DNA of 64,000 nucleotides from an uncultured Clostridia bacterium (GCA_944351415.1 CALVPQ010000001.1:13540-77539), one strand, 5' to 3'. Positions 1-41,929 are shown, numbered from the stretch's first letter. Program-made: numbers and translations. Notes: generated from the letters alone by a model not told the origin.

Positions 1-828
1 AGTTTAGAAAATAAATTTTCAAGAAAAAATATGCTTCACCCTAATAGACATACAGAAGAAGAGATAAAACATATTAAAGATTTGATTAAAAGAAATCCAC
101 ACATAGGACTTAATGAGTTGTATGGTAAATTAAGGCTATACTATGCTTATAATCGAAATCCTGCAAGCCTATATAGATTTTTGAGAAAACATGGTTGGTA
201 TGCTGAAGTAAAAAAGAATACTAAGTATATTCCGCAACCTTATGACACTCCAATTCATTTAGGTGAAAAGTGGCAACTTGACGTTAAGTATATCCCTAAA
301 AATTGTTATGTTGGAGAGTTTAAAGAAGAACGGAAATTTTATCAATATACAGTTATAGATGAAGCTTCGAGAGAAAGATTTATTTATCCTTACTTAGAAC
401 AAAATGCAACTTCCACTGTTGATTTTATTAAAAGAGCTATTGTTTATTTTGGTTACAAGCCTAATATCATACAAACTGATAATGGTGCAGAATTTACATT
501 TATAAGACAAACAAAACACGACCAAGAACATTTGTTTGATAAGTTTTGCAGACTTAACAATATAGAGCATAAAACAATAAAACCCAGAACTCCAAGGCAT
601 AATGGTAAAGTGGAACGTTCACATAGAAGTGATAATGAAAGATTTTATAAATGGTTAAAATTTTACTCTTATGATGATTTATTAAAACAAATGCAGGCTT
701 ATCTTAAACGTTCTAATAATATACCGACATCTGTGCTTTATCCCAGAAATGGTAAAAAGACAATATGGCTTTCTCCAATAGAAAAGCGAAAAGAACTGTT
801 GCTTTTAGACTGGGGTATTATTGAATGA
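1..828 (+). mobile_element. IS transposase gene (DDE / rve integrase-core type, IS481/IS3-like), 5' end cut by the window edge
   Basis: ORF 31..828. The frame stays open back to nt 1 (SLENKFSRKN precedes the listed Met), so the gene starts off-window. The strings YTVIDEASRE, IQTDNGAEFT and PRTPRHNGKVERSHR fit the D..D..E core of rve transposases. Confidence 0.8.
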
Positions 829-1219
829 TAAGACTTTATTTACCTTTATTATTTTATTATAATTTAATAAATAAAAAACTATGGTAACTTACCATAGTAT
901 TTATCATACAAAAATTTTGCGACTTCCCCTAGGGGAAGTATTTATTTTTATTATAAACATACTTATTTTTATTTATCTTTAATAAAATTTAATTTTTTTT
1001 AAAAAACTTGTGACAAACAGTTGACAATTCTTCAAATTAAAAAATTTAAGTTTTTAAAACTTTTTATATTTTATAGTTTAAAATATATACTTTAGCTACA
1101 TTTTATCTTTAAATATGCTAATTTACTTTAAAATTCGCACTGTTTTTGATATAATAAACTTGTGTGTGGAATTTGCACACCTTATTGATAACATACACTG
1201 AATTGAACTGGGAGTGATT

Positions 1220-2383: not shown

Positions 2384-3091
2384 ATGAAAGTTACAATCGT
2401 TGGAAATCACTGCACTTGGACAAAGGAATTATCAACAAGTTTTATCATTAATAGTGACACCCTTATTGATGTTCCACAAGGCTCTTTTAAAACACTTTAT
2501 AATGACTATGTTATGGACAAAATTGACAACATCTTAATTACTCATTTTCATAGTGACCATTTTGCTGATATTCATCTTATCATAGATATTTTTAATAAAA
2601 TGCAGGATAAAAAATTGAATATCTTAGCACCAAAAGGTTGCAGGGAACGATTGGTGCAACTTTTTAAAATTTTGGAAGTTGCATACCTTGAAAAATACTT
2701 AGATGATAATGTGACTTTTTATGAATGTGAAAATGGAAAAACCTATAAGATAGGCAATTATAAAATAAAGGCATACAAAGTTGCACATAAAAATCTTGAT
2801 GCTTATGGTTTTGTGGTTGAAGATAATCATATAAAAGTAGGCTTCACCGGTGACAGCTGTATGTGCAATAGCTTGCATAAAATTTTAAAACATTCAAAAG
2901 CCGTGTTTATTGATTGCTCATCTACATCTAAAAATAACAGTCACCTTTCTGTTGATGAAGTTGTTTCTTTGCAAAATGAATATAAAAACGTTTTAGTTGA
3001 ACCTGTGCATTTTGCAGAAGGTTCTGAAAATTTAGCTAAAAACACAAACCTTTTAAAGACATACCAAGGGCAAGTTATAGAAATTTTATGA
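2384..3091 (+). CDS. MBL-fold metallo-hydrolase
   Basis: HxHxDH motif (THFHSDHFAD), size 235 aa, RBS AGGAGA upstream. Confidence 0.75.
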   Translation: MKVTIVGNHCTWTKELSTSFIINSDTLIDVPQGSFKTLYNDYVMDKIDNILITHFHSDHFADIHLIIDIFNKMQDKKLNILAPKGCRERLVQLFKILEVAYLEKYLDDNVTFYECENGKTYKIGNYKIKAYKVAHKNLDAYGFVVEDNHIKVGFTGDSCMCNSLHKILKHSKAVFIDCSSTSKNNSHLSVDEVVSLQNEYKNVLVEPVHFAEGSENLAKNTNLLKTYQGQVIEIL

Positions 3092-5164: not shown

Positions 5165-5986
5165 TTACCTTATAAAATACTTTTCCATATAAAAGTATGA
5201 CCATGGTTTTGCATCTAAATCCGGCGGACAAGCAAAGGTCATTTTTTGTTTTGTGACTGGGTGAACAAACTCAAGCCGTCCAGCCCACAAGCCAAGATTA
5301 TTTGACTGTTTTGTCTTATCTCTGCCATATTTATTGTCGCCATAAAGCGGACAGTTGATACCTGCAAACTGCACTCTTATTTGATGCGACCTGCCACTGA
5401 CAAGTTTTACTTCGACAAGTGCAAGTTTATCTTTCGTTTGAAGAACCTTGTAGTTAAGCTCTGCTCGTTTTGCCCCTTGTTCACTTTGTGGTGCGAACCT
5501 GACAATATTGTTTTTTTCGTCCTTCTTGAGATAATTTATAAGGGTATTACTTCTAAGCTGTGGCACTTTTGTTGTGACTGCATAGTAAACTTTATGCATC
5601 TGGTTATTTCTTATTTGAGCTGAAAGTCGCTCTGCTGCCTTTGATGTTCTTGCAAAGACCATTATTCCACCTGTTGGCCTATCTAAACGATGAACAAGTC
5701 CAATAAAAGCTTCTCCTTCTTTATTATATTTTTCTTTTATATATTTTTTCACTTTAGTAAGCATATCTTCATCGCCACTTTTATCAGCTTGAGAAGGAAT
5801 ATTTTGTGGTTTGATTACAACAACTATATGGTTATCTTCGTATAGCACAATAAGTTCTGATTTTTTTGTAACTTTGCTCTGCTCTACATCTTTTAAACTT
5901 TCATTTTGTGATTGTTTTTCTTGAGTTATTTTTTCATTACTTTGCGATTTTTCTAAATTTTTTGTTATATTTTCATTTATTTCCAT
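5165..5986 (-). CDS. RluA-family pseudouridine synthase with a low-complexity N-terminal extension
   Basis: Catalytic motif HRLDRPTGG plus SGRSHQIRVQ; 10-nt overlap with the upstream gene. Confidence 0.85.
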   Translation of the reverse strand: MEINENITKNLEKSQSNEKITQEKQSQNESLKDVEQSKVTKKSELIVLYEDNHIVVVIKPQNIPSQADKSGDEDMLTKVKKYIKEKYNKEGEAFIGLVHRLDRPTGGIMVFARTSKAAERLSAQIRNNQMHKVYYAVTTKVPQLRSNTLINYLKKDEKNNIVRFAPQSEQGAKRAELNYKVLQTKDKLALVEVKLVSGRSHQIRVQFAGINCPLYGDNKYGRDKTKQSNNLGLWAGRLEFVHPVTKQKMTFACPPDLDAKPWSYFYMEKYFIR

Positions 5987-6846
5987 AATTTTAATCCCCT
6001 TGCTCCAGACGGCAATACAATTTTTTCTTCTGTAGGAAGCCCAATTTCATCAGCATCAATATTCCCTTCGCCAAAAATAAGTGTTAGCAAATTTTTTAAA
6101 ATGCTCGCCTGCAAACCCGTTGTATATGATGATATAAGCACAAAAAGCGGATTGTCTGAAAGAACCTTTTTAGTAAGCTCCATAAAATCATACAAGTTGT
6201 CTTCAAGTTTCCACATCTCACCATTTGTTCCACGGCCATAACTTGGTGGGTCCATTATTATTGCATCATAGAAATTGCCACGTCTTATCTCTCGCTCCAC
6301 AAATTTTTTGCAATCGTCTACTATATAACGTATATTTGTGATGCCATTGAGTGTTGCATTTTCTTTTGCACGTTCCACCATACCTTTACTCGCATCGACG
6401 TGTGTGACCTGCCCACCTGCCTTTGCACATACAACACTTGCTCCACCTGTGTAGGCAAAAAGATTTAAAACCTTTATCGGTCTTTTTGCTTCCGTTATTG
6501 CCTTTGTTATGTCATTCCAATTTACTGCCTGTTCTGGGAACAATCCTGTATGTTTAAATCCCATTGGTTTTATTATAAATTTTATACCCTTCCATTCTAT
6601 TTGCCATGATTCTGGAACATGGTTTAAAAACTGCCAATTTCCACCACCAGAAGAGGAACGTTTATAGTGACCATCAAGTCCTTTATATTTTGATAGGTCT
6701 TGTTTTGAATGCCATATAACTTGTGGGTCTGGACGAAGTAAAATATATTTCCCCCACTTTTCAAGTTTTTCACCATCTCCTGTTGCAAGCACTTTATAAT
6801 CCTTCCAATCGTCTGCTATTTTCATAATTCTTTCCTTAGTAGACAT
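5977..6846 (-). CDS. Class I SAM-dependent (rRNA-type, RlmI/RlmK-like) methyltransferase
   Basis: SAM motif I LNLFAYTGGASV and motif IV IIMDPPSYGRG. Confidence 0.75.
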   Translation of the reverse strand: MSTKERIMKIADDWKDYKVLATGDGEKLEKWGKYILLRPDPQVIWHSKQDLSKYKGLDGHYKRSSSGGGNWQFLNHVPESWQIEWKGIKFIIKPMGFKHTGLFPEQAVNWNDITKAITEAKRPIKVLNLFAYTGGASVVCAKAGGQVTHVDASKGMVERAKENATLNGITNIRYIVDDCKKFVEREIRRGNFYDAIIMDPPSYGRGTNGEMWKLEDNLYDFMELTKKVLSDNPLFVLISSYTTGLQASILKNLLTLIFGEGNIDADEIGLPTEEKIVLPSGARGLKLWK

Positions 6847-13271: not shown

Positions 13272-13545
13272 AAACCGAGATAGATGGAGAGTTAGCGGTG
13301 CTCTGTAACCCACAATCCGCTATAGTGGGATTGAACACTTGTGTGCGGTTTGATTTTGTCAAATATGTGTATAGGCTTTAGGCGATGAAATCAAGGTCTT
13401 ATGCAATCAAAATCTTTGAACCATGTCAGAGCCTGACGGCAGCATCATTAAGAAGACACTTTGGTGTGCCATAAGGTAGCTTTGGTGGAGTTTAAAGTTT
13501 ATAAGGCAGTTGGTGAAATCTTATCAAACCAAGTTCTCGGTCTTT
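13272..13545 (+). ncRNA. ffs: Signal recognition particle RNA, large Bacillus-type (with Alu domain)
   Basis: GAACCATGTCAG...GGCAGCATCATTAAG matches my recollection of the domain IV core of B. subtilis scRNA (GAACCATGTCAGGTCCGGAAGGAAGCAGCATTAAG). The 5' gttagcggtgctctgtaacc...atccgc is Alu-domain-like. The ends pair (accgaga/tctcggt). G+C is higher than in the flanks. Confidence 0.8.
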
Positions 13546-13883: not shown

Positions 13884-13965
13884 TTTGTTCCCCCTTTCAG
13901 CATTAGTATGGGCAATAATAAAAATATTATACAATTTAAACCATATCTATTTATCTATAAATAAT

Positions 13966-14099
13966 GTGCGGGAGATTATAAAAATAATATAGATAAAGTA
14001 TGTGCGGGCAAAATATGCTTGCAGAAGTGCTGGCTTTTAAGTCAGCAAAAAACGATAGTTTTTTAAAATTTTGTTTAAACAAAATTTACTTCTGCAAGC
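13966..14099. repeat. Intergenic nested-hairpin repeat, copy b (with GTGCGGGAG 5' module)
   Basis: GTGCGGGAG at 13966 and TGTGCGGG at 14001. Arms are gcttgcagaagt (14017..14028) and acttctgcaagc (14088..14099), enclosing the hairpins gctggc-ttttaa-gtcagc and attttgttt/aaacaaaat. Confidence 0.7.
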
Positions 14100-14189
14100 T
14101 TTTTTATATATCAATAGTTAAAATTTATTCTTAATAAATGACTTATAATATTTCACAAAAAAACTGCATCTAAAAATGCAGTTTTTTTA

Positions 14190-16976: not shown

Positions 16977-17016
16977 TTTTATCCCTTTATATTTAATTTT
17001 TATATTTTAAAATAAA

Positions 17017-17166
17017 TCCGCTTGAAAAGACTGCCGAAAGTGCAAACCTTTTAGGGTTTGCTGTTTTGCTTTTTTAAAGCAAAACAAAAATTTTAAGATA
17101 TTAAAATTTACTTTCGGCAGTCCATAACAACCACAAATATCTGAGATTTATGGTTGCAGTAGCGGA
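17017..17166. repeat. Intergenic nested-hairpin repeat, copy d
   Basis: Arms gactgccgaaagt (17029..17041) and actttcggcagtc (17110..17122). Inner hairpins are gcaaacc-tttta-gggtttgc and gttttgc-ttttttaaa-gcaaaac. A flanking hairpin lies at 17128..17156 and an outer pairing tccgct/agcgga closes the element. Confidence 0.7.
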
Positions 17167-17194
17167 CTTTATTATGCTTTTTATTTAGATTTGA

Positions 17195-32545: not shown

Positions 32546-32620
32546 TGGTGTTCCCAACAGGACTCGAACCTGTGACTAGCCCTTAGGAGGGGCTTGTAAT
32601 ATCCACTTTACTATGGGAAC
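32546..32620 (-). tRNA. tRNA-Arg (anticodon CCU)
   Basis: Minus strand GTTCCCA...AGCCC-CTCCTAA-GGGCT...GGTTCGAGTCC...TGGGAACACCA. The cloverleaf is readable, the anticodon loop is CU-CCU-AA and CCA is encoded. Confidence 0.9.
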
Positions 32621-39571: not shown

Positions 39572-39594
39572 AACAATATTTATAAATTAACTTA

Positions 39595-39748
39595 GTGCGG
39601 GAGATATAATAGGATTTTTATGTGAAGTTTGTGCGTGAAATAAAAGGCGAAAAACATTTTTGTTTTTCAAATAAAAACAAAAAAAAGCATTTTTTCTAAA
39701 AAAATGCTTTAAAAAAATGCGAGAAATCGCATTTTTTTGTTTTTCGCC
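39595..39748. repeat. Intergenic nested-hairpin repeat, copy c (with GTGCGGGAG 5' module)
   Basis: GTGCGGGAG at 39595 and TGTGCGTG at 39630. Arms ggcgaaaaaca (39646..39656) and tgtttttcgcc (39738..39748) enclose three A/T-loop hairpins. Confidence 0.7.
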
Positions 39749-41841: not shown

Positions 41842-41929
41842 GCGAAAAAACAAATTTAAAATTATATTTTAAATTTCAGAAAATTTTTCTTCTGAAGCGA
41901 ATTTTTTTTAAAATTCGCTGTTTTTTCGC
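41842..41929. repeat. Intergenic nested-hairpin repeat, copy g
   Basis: Arms gcgaaaaaaca and tgttttttcgc. Inner hairpins are cagaa...ttctg and gcgaattttt...aaaattcgc. Confidence 0.65.

What the first reader, a model, noticed from the sequence alone, without database searches (positions are those of the whole stretch)
13966..14099. Family of intergenic nested-hairpin repeats whose closing arms differ between copies while staying perfectly complementary (at least six copies in 64 kb)
Seen in sequence. There are six intergenic elements of 88-128 nt with the same architecture. An 11-16 nt closing stem encloses two or three short perfect hairpins with A/T loops, and an AAAATTT-type tract usually precedes the right arm. 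The copies (left arm / right arm) are listed below.
- 14017..14099: gcttgcagaagt / acttctgcaagc
- 17029..17122: gactgccgaaagt / actttcggcagtc
- 39646..39748: ggcgaaaaaca / tgtttttcgcc
- 41842..41929: gcgaaaaaaca / tgttttttcgc
- 57051..57155: ttatgccgagaagtta / taacttctcggcataa
- 63700..63827: gctggcggaag / cttccgccagc
The arms share a recognisable core (GC[CA]GA[AG]AAGT) but differ between copies. Every difference is mirrored in the partner arm, so all arms are perfectly complementary. The inner hairpins also differ in sequence but keep their positions, for example gcaaacc-tttta-gggtttgc, gccttgc-ttta-ggcaagg and gcttgaac-aaaattt-gttcaagc. All copies sit in spacers of housekeeping operons: iscU-like/ytxH, hslU/tcdA, the DUF4186/ABC convergent spacer, SSB-like/ABC, trmD/rbgA and lepA/hemW. 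Inference. Conservation of structure rather than sequence is unusual for a transposase-driven MITE. It fits either a structured RNA or DNA cruciform family (mRNA stabiliser, processing or termination module, protein landing pad) or a self-propagating palindromic element. I do not recognise it as BOX, RUP, REP/BIME, ERIC or Correia.
Basis: seen in the sequence. Interest (0 to 1): 0.7.

Follow-up and report, generated by a model that had tools for sequence, protein, structure and literature searches.

The report
Four-helix palindromic intergenic repeat family
An uncultured gut Clostridia genome carries an apparently undescribed family of ~100-bp intergenic repeats that each fold into one closing stem plus exactly three perfect hairpins, and related species keep this fold while the sequence changes, through mirrored substitutions and indels.

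Summary
All six elements are at the stated coordinates with perfectly complementary 10-16-nt arms. They are the only GC-containing perfect inverted repeats of this kind in the window.

Each copy has exactly three inner hairpins, not "two or three". The same holds for all 14 family members I found, a four-helix junction (z -6 to -12).

The arms are homologous, with consensus ~TG[GC]CG[GA]AAG, and every difference is mirrored. There are 329 Watson-Crick pairs and only 7 G.U, with no strand bias.

Orthologous copies exist in related species: c6 in L196, c3 and c4 in L199, and possibly c7 in L197. They keep all four helices through compensated substitutions, including A.T>T.A swaps, and through mirrored indels. 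Other relatives have 8-23-nt empty spacers or plain terminators at the same sites.

I found no target-site duplications, no match to the neighbouring integrase or prophage, and no Rfam, plasmid or phage match. No copy is present in some strains of the species and absent in others.

Best reading: a new REP/BIME- or bcr1-like dispersed palindromic element. It sits where terminators sit and is built from terminator-like hairpins. Its pairing is kept by a strand-symmetric, DNA-level process or by selection. Function and any mobilising enzyme remain inferred.

The parts
14017..14099 (-). Copy c1. Arms GCTTGCAGAAGT/ACTTCTGCAAGC (12 bp) enclose three hairpins. It lies between the iscU terminator (14157-14188) and a promoter-like site for the next gene.
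   Evidence: (z -7.6). One stem SNP separates strains.
17029..17122 (-). Copy c2. Arms GACTGCCGAAAGT/ACTTTCGGCAGTC (13 bp) enclose three hairpins. It sits inside a 218-nt hslU-tcdA spacer that is 8-21 nt long in four related lineages and 90 nt without an element in a fifth.
   Evidence: (z -11.2).
39646..39748 (-). Copy c3. Arms GGCGAAAAAC(A)/(T)GTTTTTCGCC enclose three A-tract/stem/T-tract hairpins. It is the only hairpin module I saw in the convergent DUF4186/ABC-exporter spacer. The orthologue is L199:9812-9914.
   Evidence: (z -9.2).
41842..41929 (-). Copy c4. Arms GCGAAAAAACA/TGTTTTTTCGC enclose three hairpins. It lies 24 nt after the SSB gene stop and upstream of a strong promoter-like site (TTGACA-17-TAAAAT, 41797->41769). 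The orthologue is L199:7597-7694.
   Evidence: (z -6.3).
57051..57155 (-). Copy c5. Arms TTATGCCGAGAAGTTA/TAACTTCTCGGCATAA (16 bp) enclose three hairpins, in the trmD/GTPase (rbgA-like) spacer.
   Evidence: (z -11.6).
63700..63827 (-). Copy c6. Arms GCTGGCGGAAG/CTTCCGCCAGC enclose three hairpins, the middle one long and irregular, in the lepA/hemW spacer. The orthologue is L196:2382-2510, with identical arms.
   Evidence: (z -8.2).
13935..14016 (-). A ~75-nt tail next to c1, on the 3' side in the gene direction. It carries the boxes CCCGCACATACTT and ATCTCCCGCAC. A paralogous tail lies next to c3.
39572..39645 (-). The paralogous tail next to c3, with boxes CACGCACAAACTT and ATCTCCCGCAC at the same spacing as at c1: GTGCGGGAGAT begins 51 nt from the element in both. 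It is conserved in L199.

Best explanation
**What it is.** These are members of an apparently undescribed family of dispersed intergenic palindromic DNA elements, 83-129 bp long. The family is confined to a small clade of uncultured, AT-rich gut Clostridia (Christensenellales-like).

**Anatomy.**
- A closing stem of 9-25 bp has a GC-rich outer half and a purine-rich inner half (..GCG[GA]AAG).
- Inside it are exactly three hairpins, so a single strand folds into an almost gap-free four-helix junction.
- Most inner hairpins have the A-tract/stem/T-tract form of bidirectional intrinsic terminators.

**Shown.**
- The elements are inherited vertically at fixed intergenic sites.
- They are occasionally gained or lost between species.
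- They evolve by mirrored substitutions and mirrored indels, so all four helices stay Watson-Crick perfect.

**Inferred.**
- They are REP/BIME- or bcr1/Correia-like non-autonomous repeats that settle where terminators are tolerated.
- They are co-transcribed with their neighbours and act as composite terminators or 3'-end protecting modules.
- Their pairing is kept by a strand-symmetric, DNA-level process: hairpin-templated correction by intrastrand template switching, and/or selection for hairpins that can extrude. RNA-only selection looks less likely.
- The mobilising enzyme, if there is one, is unknown.
For: **Family and fold**
- All 14 elements have the same topology, with z -6 to -12 for the eight folded against shuffles.
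- The arms are homologous and covary, with 0 of 500 shuffles matching.
- The model R1 finds only family members in the window and in 1.6 Mb of other loci.

**Strand symmetry**
- There are 329 Watson-Crick pairs against 7 G.U, the same on either strand. The core arm columns show no one-sided change.

**Conservation in orthologues**
- c6 against L196: the arms are 13/13 and 11/11 identical while the flanks are about 65% identical. The GC hairpin shows four compensated transition pairs, and the base of the middle hairpin shows A.T>C.G.
- c3 and c4 against L199: overall identity is 83%, the same as coding DNA. There are five compensated pairs, including A.T>T.A swaps, and several mirrored indels. 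All helices remain perfect.

**Gain and loss**
- The hslU-tcdA spacer is 8-21 nt in relatives with 85-94% HslU identity.
- lepA-hemW is 23 nt in L197.
- L199 has an extra element after rplS.
- L200 has plain terminators on both sides of the ABC gene.

**Position**
- 10 of 11 independent sites lie downstream of a gene's 3' end. c3 is the only hairpin module I saw in its convergent spacer.
- Inner hairpins score as terminator-like.

**Precedent**
- Compensatory change that preserves a cruciform-like fold is reported for the mobile repeat bcr1 (PMC3184786).
Against: - No transcript data are available, so termination and stabilisation are inference.
- c8 lies in a divergent promoter spacer, where no 3' end is expected.
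- c1 follows a separate canonical terminator, and the L199 orthologue of c4 is followed by one. The element is therefore not simply 'the' terminator.
- No mobilising gene was found in about 95 kb of the species' DNA.
- No copy is present in some strains and absent in others, so present-day mobility is unproven.
- Template-switch correction is a known mechanism in E. coli but is untested here. Selection alone could also give compensated changes.
- Four of the four unambiguous GAAGT-type copies share one orientation relative to transcription. If real, that hints at a strand-specific role.
Confidence: 0.5

Rival explanations
1. It is a purely RNA-level cis-acting element. The four-way junction would be a structured part of polycistronic or 3'-UTR RNA, for example an RNase III or RNase Y processing site, a block to 3' exonucleases, or an attenuator. 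Pairing would be kept by ordinary purifying selection on the transcript.
For: - Compensated changes in orthologues are the classic signature of a functional RNA.
- c1, c2, c5 and c6 all have the same orientation relative to their co-directional genes.
- The imperfect hairpin flanking c2 has a G.U that pairs only on the gene-sense strand.
- c2 lies inside an operon.
Against: - Only 2% of pairs are G.U, with no strand asymmetry.
- The A-U/G-C switches in the arms show no G.U intermediates.
- A.T>T.A swaps and mirrored indels are frequent.
- There are no conserved loop or junction nucleotides, which functional RNAs usually have.
- c7 and its possible orthologue in L197 have opposite hairpin order.
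- c8 is in a divergent spacer.
- The element is dispensable at the same sites in close relatives.
Confidence: 0.25
2. It is a signal or substrate that works on single-stranded DNA. The folded four-helix junction would be recognised on ssDNA, for example as a primase or primosome entry site like the three-hairpin complementary-strand origin of phage G4. Alternatively it would be the substrate of a structure-specific HUH/Y1 or tyrosine recombinase that also spreads it.
For: - The helices are strictly Watson-Crick and strand-symmetric, and the junction has no gaps.
- The number of hairpins is constant at three.
- There are no target-site duplications, as with ssDNA transposition.
- Most oriented copies share one orientation relative to the strand on which nearly all genes lie.
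Against: - No candidate enzyme gene was seen in the sequence I could reach.
- The adjacent inovirus-like prophage, which has a G2P-type Rep, carries no element and is absent from strains that do have the elements.
- The parallel with the G4-type origin rests on my memory, not on a test.
Confidence: 0.12
3. It is an ordinary MITE: a deletion derivative of an insertion sequence, moved in trans by a DDE transposase that binds the terminal inverted repeats.
For: - The terminal inverted repeats are perfect, the elements are about 100 bp, they lie only in intergenic DNA, and presence is patchy between species.
- An rve-type integrase gene lies at the left edge of the window.
Against: - No target-site duplications at any of eight copies.
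- The GC-containing arms have no match within 2 mismatches in the integrase/prophage region.
- Copies cannot be aligned to one another.
- The arms differ between copies, which does not fit binding by a single transposase.
- No copy is present in some strains and absent in others.
Confidence: 0.06
4. It is a chance or local by-product: independent clusters of terminator hairpins in AT-rich spacers that happen to be bracketed by an inverted repeat. There would be no family.
For: The inner hairpins look like ordinary terminators, and the genome is AT-rich.
Against: - Shuffles give no motif hits against 4 observed.
- The arms share a core.
- Several copies share an AAAATTTT hairpin.
- All 14 elements have three hairpins.
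- Low-GC relatives have none in 21-kb stretches.
Confidence: 0.02

Closest known systems
bcr1 (and bcr group A/B) interspersed repeats of the Bacillus cereus group
   Same: A Firmicutes intergenic repeat of ~100-155 bp that is patchy between relatives. It is reported to keep a cruciform-like fold through compensatory base changes (PMC3184786).
   Different: bcr1 copies are similar in sequence, are flanked by 5-bp direct repeats, and fold differently. Here there are no target-site duplications, the copies cannot be aligned, and the fold is a strict four-helix junction.
REP/BIME and REPIN elements (mobilised by RAYT transposases)
   Same: Dispersed extragenic palindromes downstream of genes with no target-site duplications. 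Roles proposed for them include termination, mRNA stabilisation and protein binding.
   Different: REPs are single imperfect hairpins of 20-40 nt with a conserved GTAG or CGTC head, are similar in sequence within a genome, and cluster in alternating orientation near a RAYT gene (PMC3733652, PMC2817692). None of that is seen here.
Correia (Neisseria), ERIC, RUP and BOX elements
   Same: Small non-autonomous intergenic repeats that fold into stable structures. From memory, they are co-transcribed and affect termination, processing or mRNA stability.
   Different: Those are sequence-defined families with consensus inverted repeats and, for Correia and RUP, target-site duplications. They fold as one long hairpin, not as three hairpins inside a closing stem.
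Integron attC sites
   Same: Recombination sites defined by structure rather than sequence. From memory, the two arms are complementary but differ between sites, and the central part can be branched.
   Different: From memory, attC needs RYYYAAC/GTTRRRY core sites, extrahelical bases, a cassette array and an integrase. Here the stems are perfect, the core sites are absent, and the neighbours are housekeeping genes.
Bidirectional intrinsic terminators
   Same: Individual inner hairpins have the A-tract/stem/T-tract form. The elements occupy spacers where relatives have plain terminators.
   Different: There are three hairpins in tandem, enclosed by a conserved GC-clamped stem. One copy lies in a divergent promoter spacer.

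Membership tests
MITE (transposase-driven element with terminal inverted repeats) | Target-site duplications flank each copy | tested here: not met
   No direct repeats flank any of the eight copies.
MITE (transposase-driven element with terminal inverted repeats) | Terminal repeats match the ends of an autonomous IS in the genome | tested here: inconclusive
   There is no match to the only integrase/prophage region within reach. The rest of the genome could not be searched.
MITE (transposase-driven element with terminal inverted repeats) | Copies are near-identical in sequence, and presence varies between strains | tested here: not met
   Copies share only 11-12-nt A/T runs. Every strain that covers a site has the element.
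REP/BIME (RAYT-associated) | A single 20-40-nt imperfect palindrome with a conserved GTAG or CGTC head | tested here: not met
   The elements are 83-129 nt with four helices, and no arm starts with GTAG or CGTC.
REP/BIME (RAYT-associated) | A RAYT (Y1 transposase) gene flanked by the repeats | not testable with these tools
   No Y1_Tnp domain appears among the genes listed for about 95 kb.
bcr1-type repeat | Sequence consensus of ~155 bp with 5-bp direct repeats | tested here: not met
   There are no direct repeats. I did not compare directly with a bcr1 sequence.
Integron attC | R''/R' core sites RYYYAAC and GTTRRRY at the ends of the arms | tested here: not met
   The arms read ..GCGGAAG/CTTCCGC.. 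with no GTT core.
Integron attC | Lies in a cassette array next to an integron integrase | tested here: not met
   The neighbours are housekeeping genes: hslU, iscU, trmD, lepA and SSB.
Any Rfam 15 RNA family | A covariance-model match at the gathering score | tested here: not met
   Only SRP RNA and one tRNA are found in the window. Nothing overlaps c1-c4 with E below 0.2 in searches reporting matches up to E=5.
Intrinsic terminator | A GC-containing hairpin followed by a T-run | tested here: inconclusive
   One inner hairpin each of c2, c3 and c4 passes the scan, on the + strand only. Others have too few G-C pairs. Function was not tested.

The most novel reading that the evidence does not exclude
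The family may be a 'fold-inherited' selfish DNA. It would be a four-way-junction element whose two halves of every helix are repeatedly re-templated from each other by intrastrand template switching or hairpin repair. The sequence would then drift freely while the fold persisted. Spread would depend on a still unknown enzyme that recognises the junction shape rather than a sequence.
Probability: 0.2. Interest if true: 0.85.

Novelty: new variant of a known kind. Interest (0 to 1): 0.6.

Why it matters
Dispersed bacterial repeats are normally defined by sequence. Here the fold is what persists. The architecture is fixed at one stem plus three hairpins, pairing is near-perfect on both strands, and orthologues in related species differ by mirrored substitutions and mirrored indels.

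That makes the family a clean natural system for asking whether palindromes are kept by selection or by templated self-correction. It can also address how terminator-like modules spread in reduced, AT-rich gut genomes.

In practice, the elements are strong secondary structures that can break assemblies. They also mark a clade of uncultured Clostridia and are missing from Rfam.

Tried and rejected
- **Decayed copies.** A scan allowing 1-2 arm mismatches gave 305 chance-level hits, mostly in genes. None had a structured interior apart from the six known copies.
- **Target-site duplications.** None found.
- **Match of the arms to the neighbouring integrase/prophage.** Only A/T-run matches.
- **Rfam.** Nothing at gathering score or up to E=5.
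- **BLAST of c7 against plasmids and c2 against phages.** No match.
- **Viral contig scan with the hairpin-plus-arm motif.** 89 hits, none with a complementary left arm, so chance.
- **The one metagenome scan, using the c6 arms.** 43 hits, all in contigs of 48-76% GC. I judged these unrelated.
- **First exact-protein look-ups.** These failed because the longest ORF was not the called gene.
- **"Species-specific family".** I held this view. It was overturned by L196, L197 and L199.
- **Structured regions in L032 and L058.** A tRNA and plain terminators.
- **Covariance model with default filters.** It recovers only 3 of the roughly 9 family members in the loci searched. It is specific but insensitive.
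- **Automated tally of helix changes for the c6 pair.** It failed because the sister element folds differently, so I counted that pair by hand.

Full report

Yes.

An exhaustive scan for perfect inverted repeats (arm >=10 nt, loop 30-170 nt) returns them with arms of 12, 13, 11, 11, 16 and 11 nt. They are the only repeats with arm >=11 nt and GC >=0.36. Everything else is A/T-only or a 10-12-nt match inside a gene.

With RNA or DNA energy parameters, every copy adopts the same minimum-energy fold: a closing stem that encloses three hairpins. Junction bases are almost all paired. Z-scores run from -6.3 to -11.6, and 0 of 200 dinucleotide shuffles fold as well.

The motif joining the last hairpin to the right arm, AAAATTTTN{7,12}AAAATTTN{0,4}CTTYYSS, occurs four times, all on the + strand. 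None is expected from shuffles.

Allowing one or two arm mismatches brings in only chance-level hits with unstructured interiors. A covariance model scored without filters finds only c1-c5 at E<0.01. c6 is missed because of its long middle hairpin, and the next hit (E=0.08) lies inside a gene.

The window therefore holds exactly six copies and no visible decayed ones.

**2. The organism and further copies**

The window is 32% GC, with nearly all genes on the - strand.

Exact-protein look-ups place it in an uncultured gut Clostridia species assembled many times in ENA, Logan and NCBI data, for example GCA_947856345.1. Its nearest named relatives are Christensenellales-like MAGs such as Candidatus Caccovivens.

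The 10 kb beyond the right edge of the window holds two more copies:
- c7 (L087:2843-2938, arms GTTTGGCGGAAGC) lies in a convergent spacer.
- c8 (L087:4219-4318, arms GTCAGAGAATGA) lies in a divergent spacer.

That makes 8 copies in about 74 kb of chromosome. There are none in the 9-kb prophage to the left.

**3. Are the copies one family?**

BLAST sees only 11-12-nt A/T runs between copies. The arms do align, however, with consensus about nnTG[GC]CG[GA]AAG[T/C]. Five copies share an AAAATTTT..AAAATTT hairpin whose tip differs in each copy but always pairs.

I built an arms-only alignment and counted pairs on it:
- 92% of cells pair.
- 12 of 13 pairs change on both sides.
- The core columns show no one-sided (G.U) change.
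- 0 of 500 shuffles reach these values.
- Sliding the partner columns gives 36-45% pairing.

I made this alignment symmetric about the junction, so the high pairing is partly by construction. What it adds is homologous columns that switch A-T to G-C with no intermediates.

Across all helices of the eight copies there are 329 Watson-Crick pairs and only 7 G.U. The count is the same whichever strand is folded.

**4. Related species: orthologues, empty sites and turnover**

*Empty sites*
- The hslU-tcdA spacer that holds c2 is 218 nt here.
- It is 21, 15 and 8 nt in relatives with 94%, 89% and 85% HslU identity.
- It is 90 nt without an element in a 91% relative.
- No element of this architecture occurs anywhere in those 6-21-kb loci.

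*Orthologues*
- **L196** (HemW 81% identical) has an element in the lepA-hemW spacer that aligns with c6, flanks included. The arms are identical, 13/13 and 11/11, while the flanks are about 65% identical. The AAAATTTT hairpin carries two uncompensated changes in the sister. The base of the middle hairpin shows A.T>C.G. The GC hairpin differs by four compensated transition pairs plus one mismatch.
- **L199** (ABC exporter 87% identical, coding DNA about 83% identical) has orthologues of both c4 and c3. Each is about 83% identical to the window copy, no better than coding sequence, yet all four helices remain perfect.
  - In the c4 closing stem the changes are A.T>G.C and A.T>T.A.
  - In the c3 hairpins they are T.A>C.G, A.T>T.A and T.A>A.T.
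  - There are several mirrored indels, for example TCAGAA/TTCTGA against TCAAGAA/TTCTTGA, and A7/T7 against A6/T6.
  - The exceptions are one bulge and one G.U.
- If roughly 15 substitutions and 5 indels per element fell at random, I estimate about a dozen broken pairs. At most two are seen.

*Turnover*
- L199 also has an element after rplS (L199:12575-12691), where the window has a plain terminator.
- L200 (81%) has plain terminators on both sides of the ABC gene.
- L197 (HemW 63% identical, GCA_944372465.1) has two members.
  - One has a 25-bp perfect closing stem and sits in the same convergent spacer as c7. It shares c7's GAAGC junction and AAAAATTTTGAA hairpin, but its hairpins are in the opposite order.
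  - The c5, c6 and c8 sites of L197 are empty.
- Whether that L197 copy is a true orthologue of c7 that has inverted, or an independent insertion, cannot be decided.

*Within the species*
- Every strain has every element.
- The only variation is one stem SNP in c1, two SNPs at unpaired positions of c6, and one loop-length change in c5.

**5. What it is not**

- There are no target-site duplications.
- The GC-containing arms have no match in the rve integrase/prophage region.
- Rfam gives nothing at gathering score, and nothing overlaps the elements with E below 0.2 in searches up to E=5.
- c7 has no match in the plasmid collection and c2 none in the phage collection.
- Pattern scans of the viral and JGI metagenome collections returned only hits I judged to be chance.
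- The model R1 finds only family members in 1.6 Mb of loci from many phyla.

The defining features of MITEs, REP/BIME, bcr1 and attC that I could test are not met.

**6. Position and likely action**

Ten of eleven independent sites lie downstream of a gene's 3' end, in co-directional or convergent spacers. c8 is the exception.
- c4 lies 24 nt after a stop codon and upstream of an 11/12 promoter match.
- c1 lies between a canonical terminator and a promoter-like site.
- c3 is the only hairpin module I saw between two convergent genes.
- Relatives have plain terminators at the c3 and c4 sites.

Most inner hairpins have the A-tract/stem/T-tract form of bidirectional terminators, and one inner hairpin in each of c2, c3 and c4 passes the terminator scan.

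I infer that the elements are co-transcribed and act as composite terminators or protectors of mRNA 3' ends, as proposed for REP, ERIC and Correia elements. No transcript data support this yet.

**7. How is pairing kept?**

Compensated change in orthologues shows that pairing is maintained. The pattern of that change looks DNA-like:
- G.U pairs are almost absent.
- There is no strand asymmetry.
- A.T>T.A swaps occur, and these cannot pass through a wobble intermediate.
- Indels are mirrored.
- The junction has no gaps, and no loop or junction nucleotides are conserved.

From established work on quasipalindrome mutagenesis in E. coli (my knowledge, not tested here), intrastrand template switching copies one arm of a hairpin onto the other. 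That would produce exactly these features without RNA-level selection.

It does not explain the constant three-hairpin plan, the conserved arm core, or the identical arms in orthologues. Those point to an added constraint: a protein that recognises the arm or junction, or a requirement for function.

I therefore rank the readings as follows:
- A DNA-level palindromic repeat with terminator-like side effects: 0.5.
- A purely RNA-level element: 0.25.
- An ssDNA signal or enzyme substrate: 0.12.
- A plain MITE: 0.06.
- Chance: 0.02.

**8. Novelty**

Dispersed structured intergenic repeats are a known kind. Compensatory change has been reported for bcr1 (PMC3184786).

What I believe is new is the combination of a fixed four-helix architecture, near-perfect strand-symmetric pairing, copies that cannot be aligned to one another, and orthologues that differ by mirrored substitutions and indels. 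My literature searches found no description of such a family.

I class it as a new variant of a known kind, with interest 0.6.

Noticed in passing
window 13935-14016 and 39572-39645 (also L199:9915-10001): c1 and c3 share a ~75-nt tail on the same side, although their bodies cannot be aligned. It carries two boxes, C[CA]CGCACA.ACTT and ATCTCCCGCAC, at identical spacing, and GTGCGGGAGAT starts exactly 51 nt from each element. It could be part of a longer mobile unit, an outward-facing promoter, or a preferred insertion site.
   Followed up: partly
window 1-~1000; L103:1-9609: The window starts inside an inovirus-like prophage with Zot, a G2P-type replication protein and a 328-aa rve integrase whose C-terminal 265 aa are window 31-828. 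Strains L105 and L106 lack it and instead carry tandem 133-aa genes, six of them in L105. No four-helix element lies inside it.
   Followed up: partly
window 2384-3091 (+): The metallo-beta-lactamase-fold protein beside the prophage carries a precomputed Pfam hit to Anti-Pycsar_Apyc1 (PF23023) in the contig gene tables. It may be a phage anti-defence gene.
   Followed up: no
L087:5030-5590 (about 5 kb beyond the right edge of the window): A tandem duplication of a ~265-nt, GC-richer, strongly folding segment that ends in a terminator-like hairpin. There is no Rfam gathering hit. It may be an unannotated small RNA gene present twice.
   Followed up: partly
window 17014-17022 with 17161-17170, and 17128-17156: c2 sits inside a larger imperfect stem (AAATCCGCT / AGCGGACTTT, one bulge), together with an extra 11-bp hairpin whose single non-Watson-Crick pair is G.U only on the gene-sense strand. 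This may be an older layer of structure in the inserted spacer.
   Followed up: partly
L010:~5655-5725 and L012:~6086-6160: Relatives with 70-72% HslU identity carry a different nested hairpin (ATATCTTGTGG..CCACAAGATAT with an inner hairpin) in the same hslU-tcdA spacer. Its ATATTTGTGG motif recurs in the extra hairpin beside c2.
   Followed up: no
window 923-940: A perfect palindrome, ACTTCCCCTAGGGGAAGT, just downstream of the integrase gene. It has the family's GGAAGT/ACTTCC arm motif in the reverse arrangement. It may be coincidence.
   Followed up: no
window 13275-13540 (+) and 32549-32620 (-): A large bacterial SRP RNA (165 bits) on the strand opposite to nearly all genes, and a single tRNA.
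   Followed up: no
L199:7700-7740: In the sister species a canonical terminator hairpin (AACGCTAAAAAATAGTGCATTTTTTAGCGTTTTTT) follows the c4 orthologue. The window has no such hairpin at that position, so the element and plain terminators can coexist or replace each other.
   Followed up: partly
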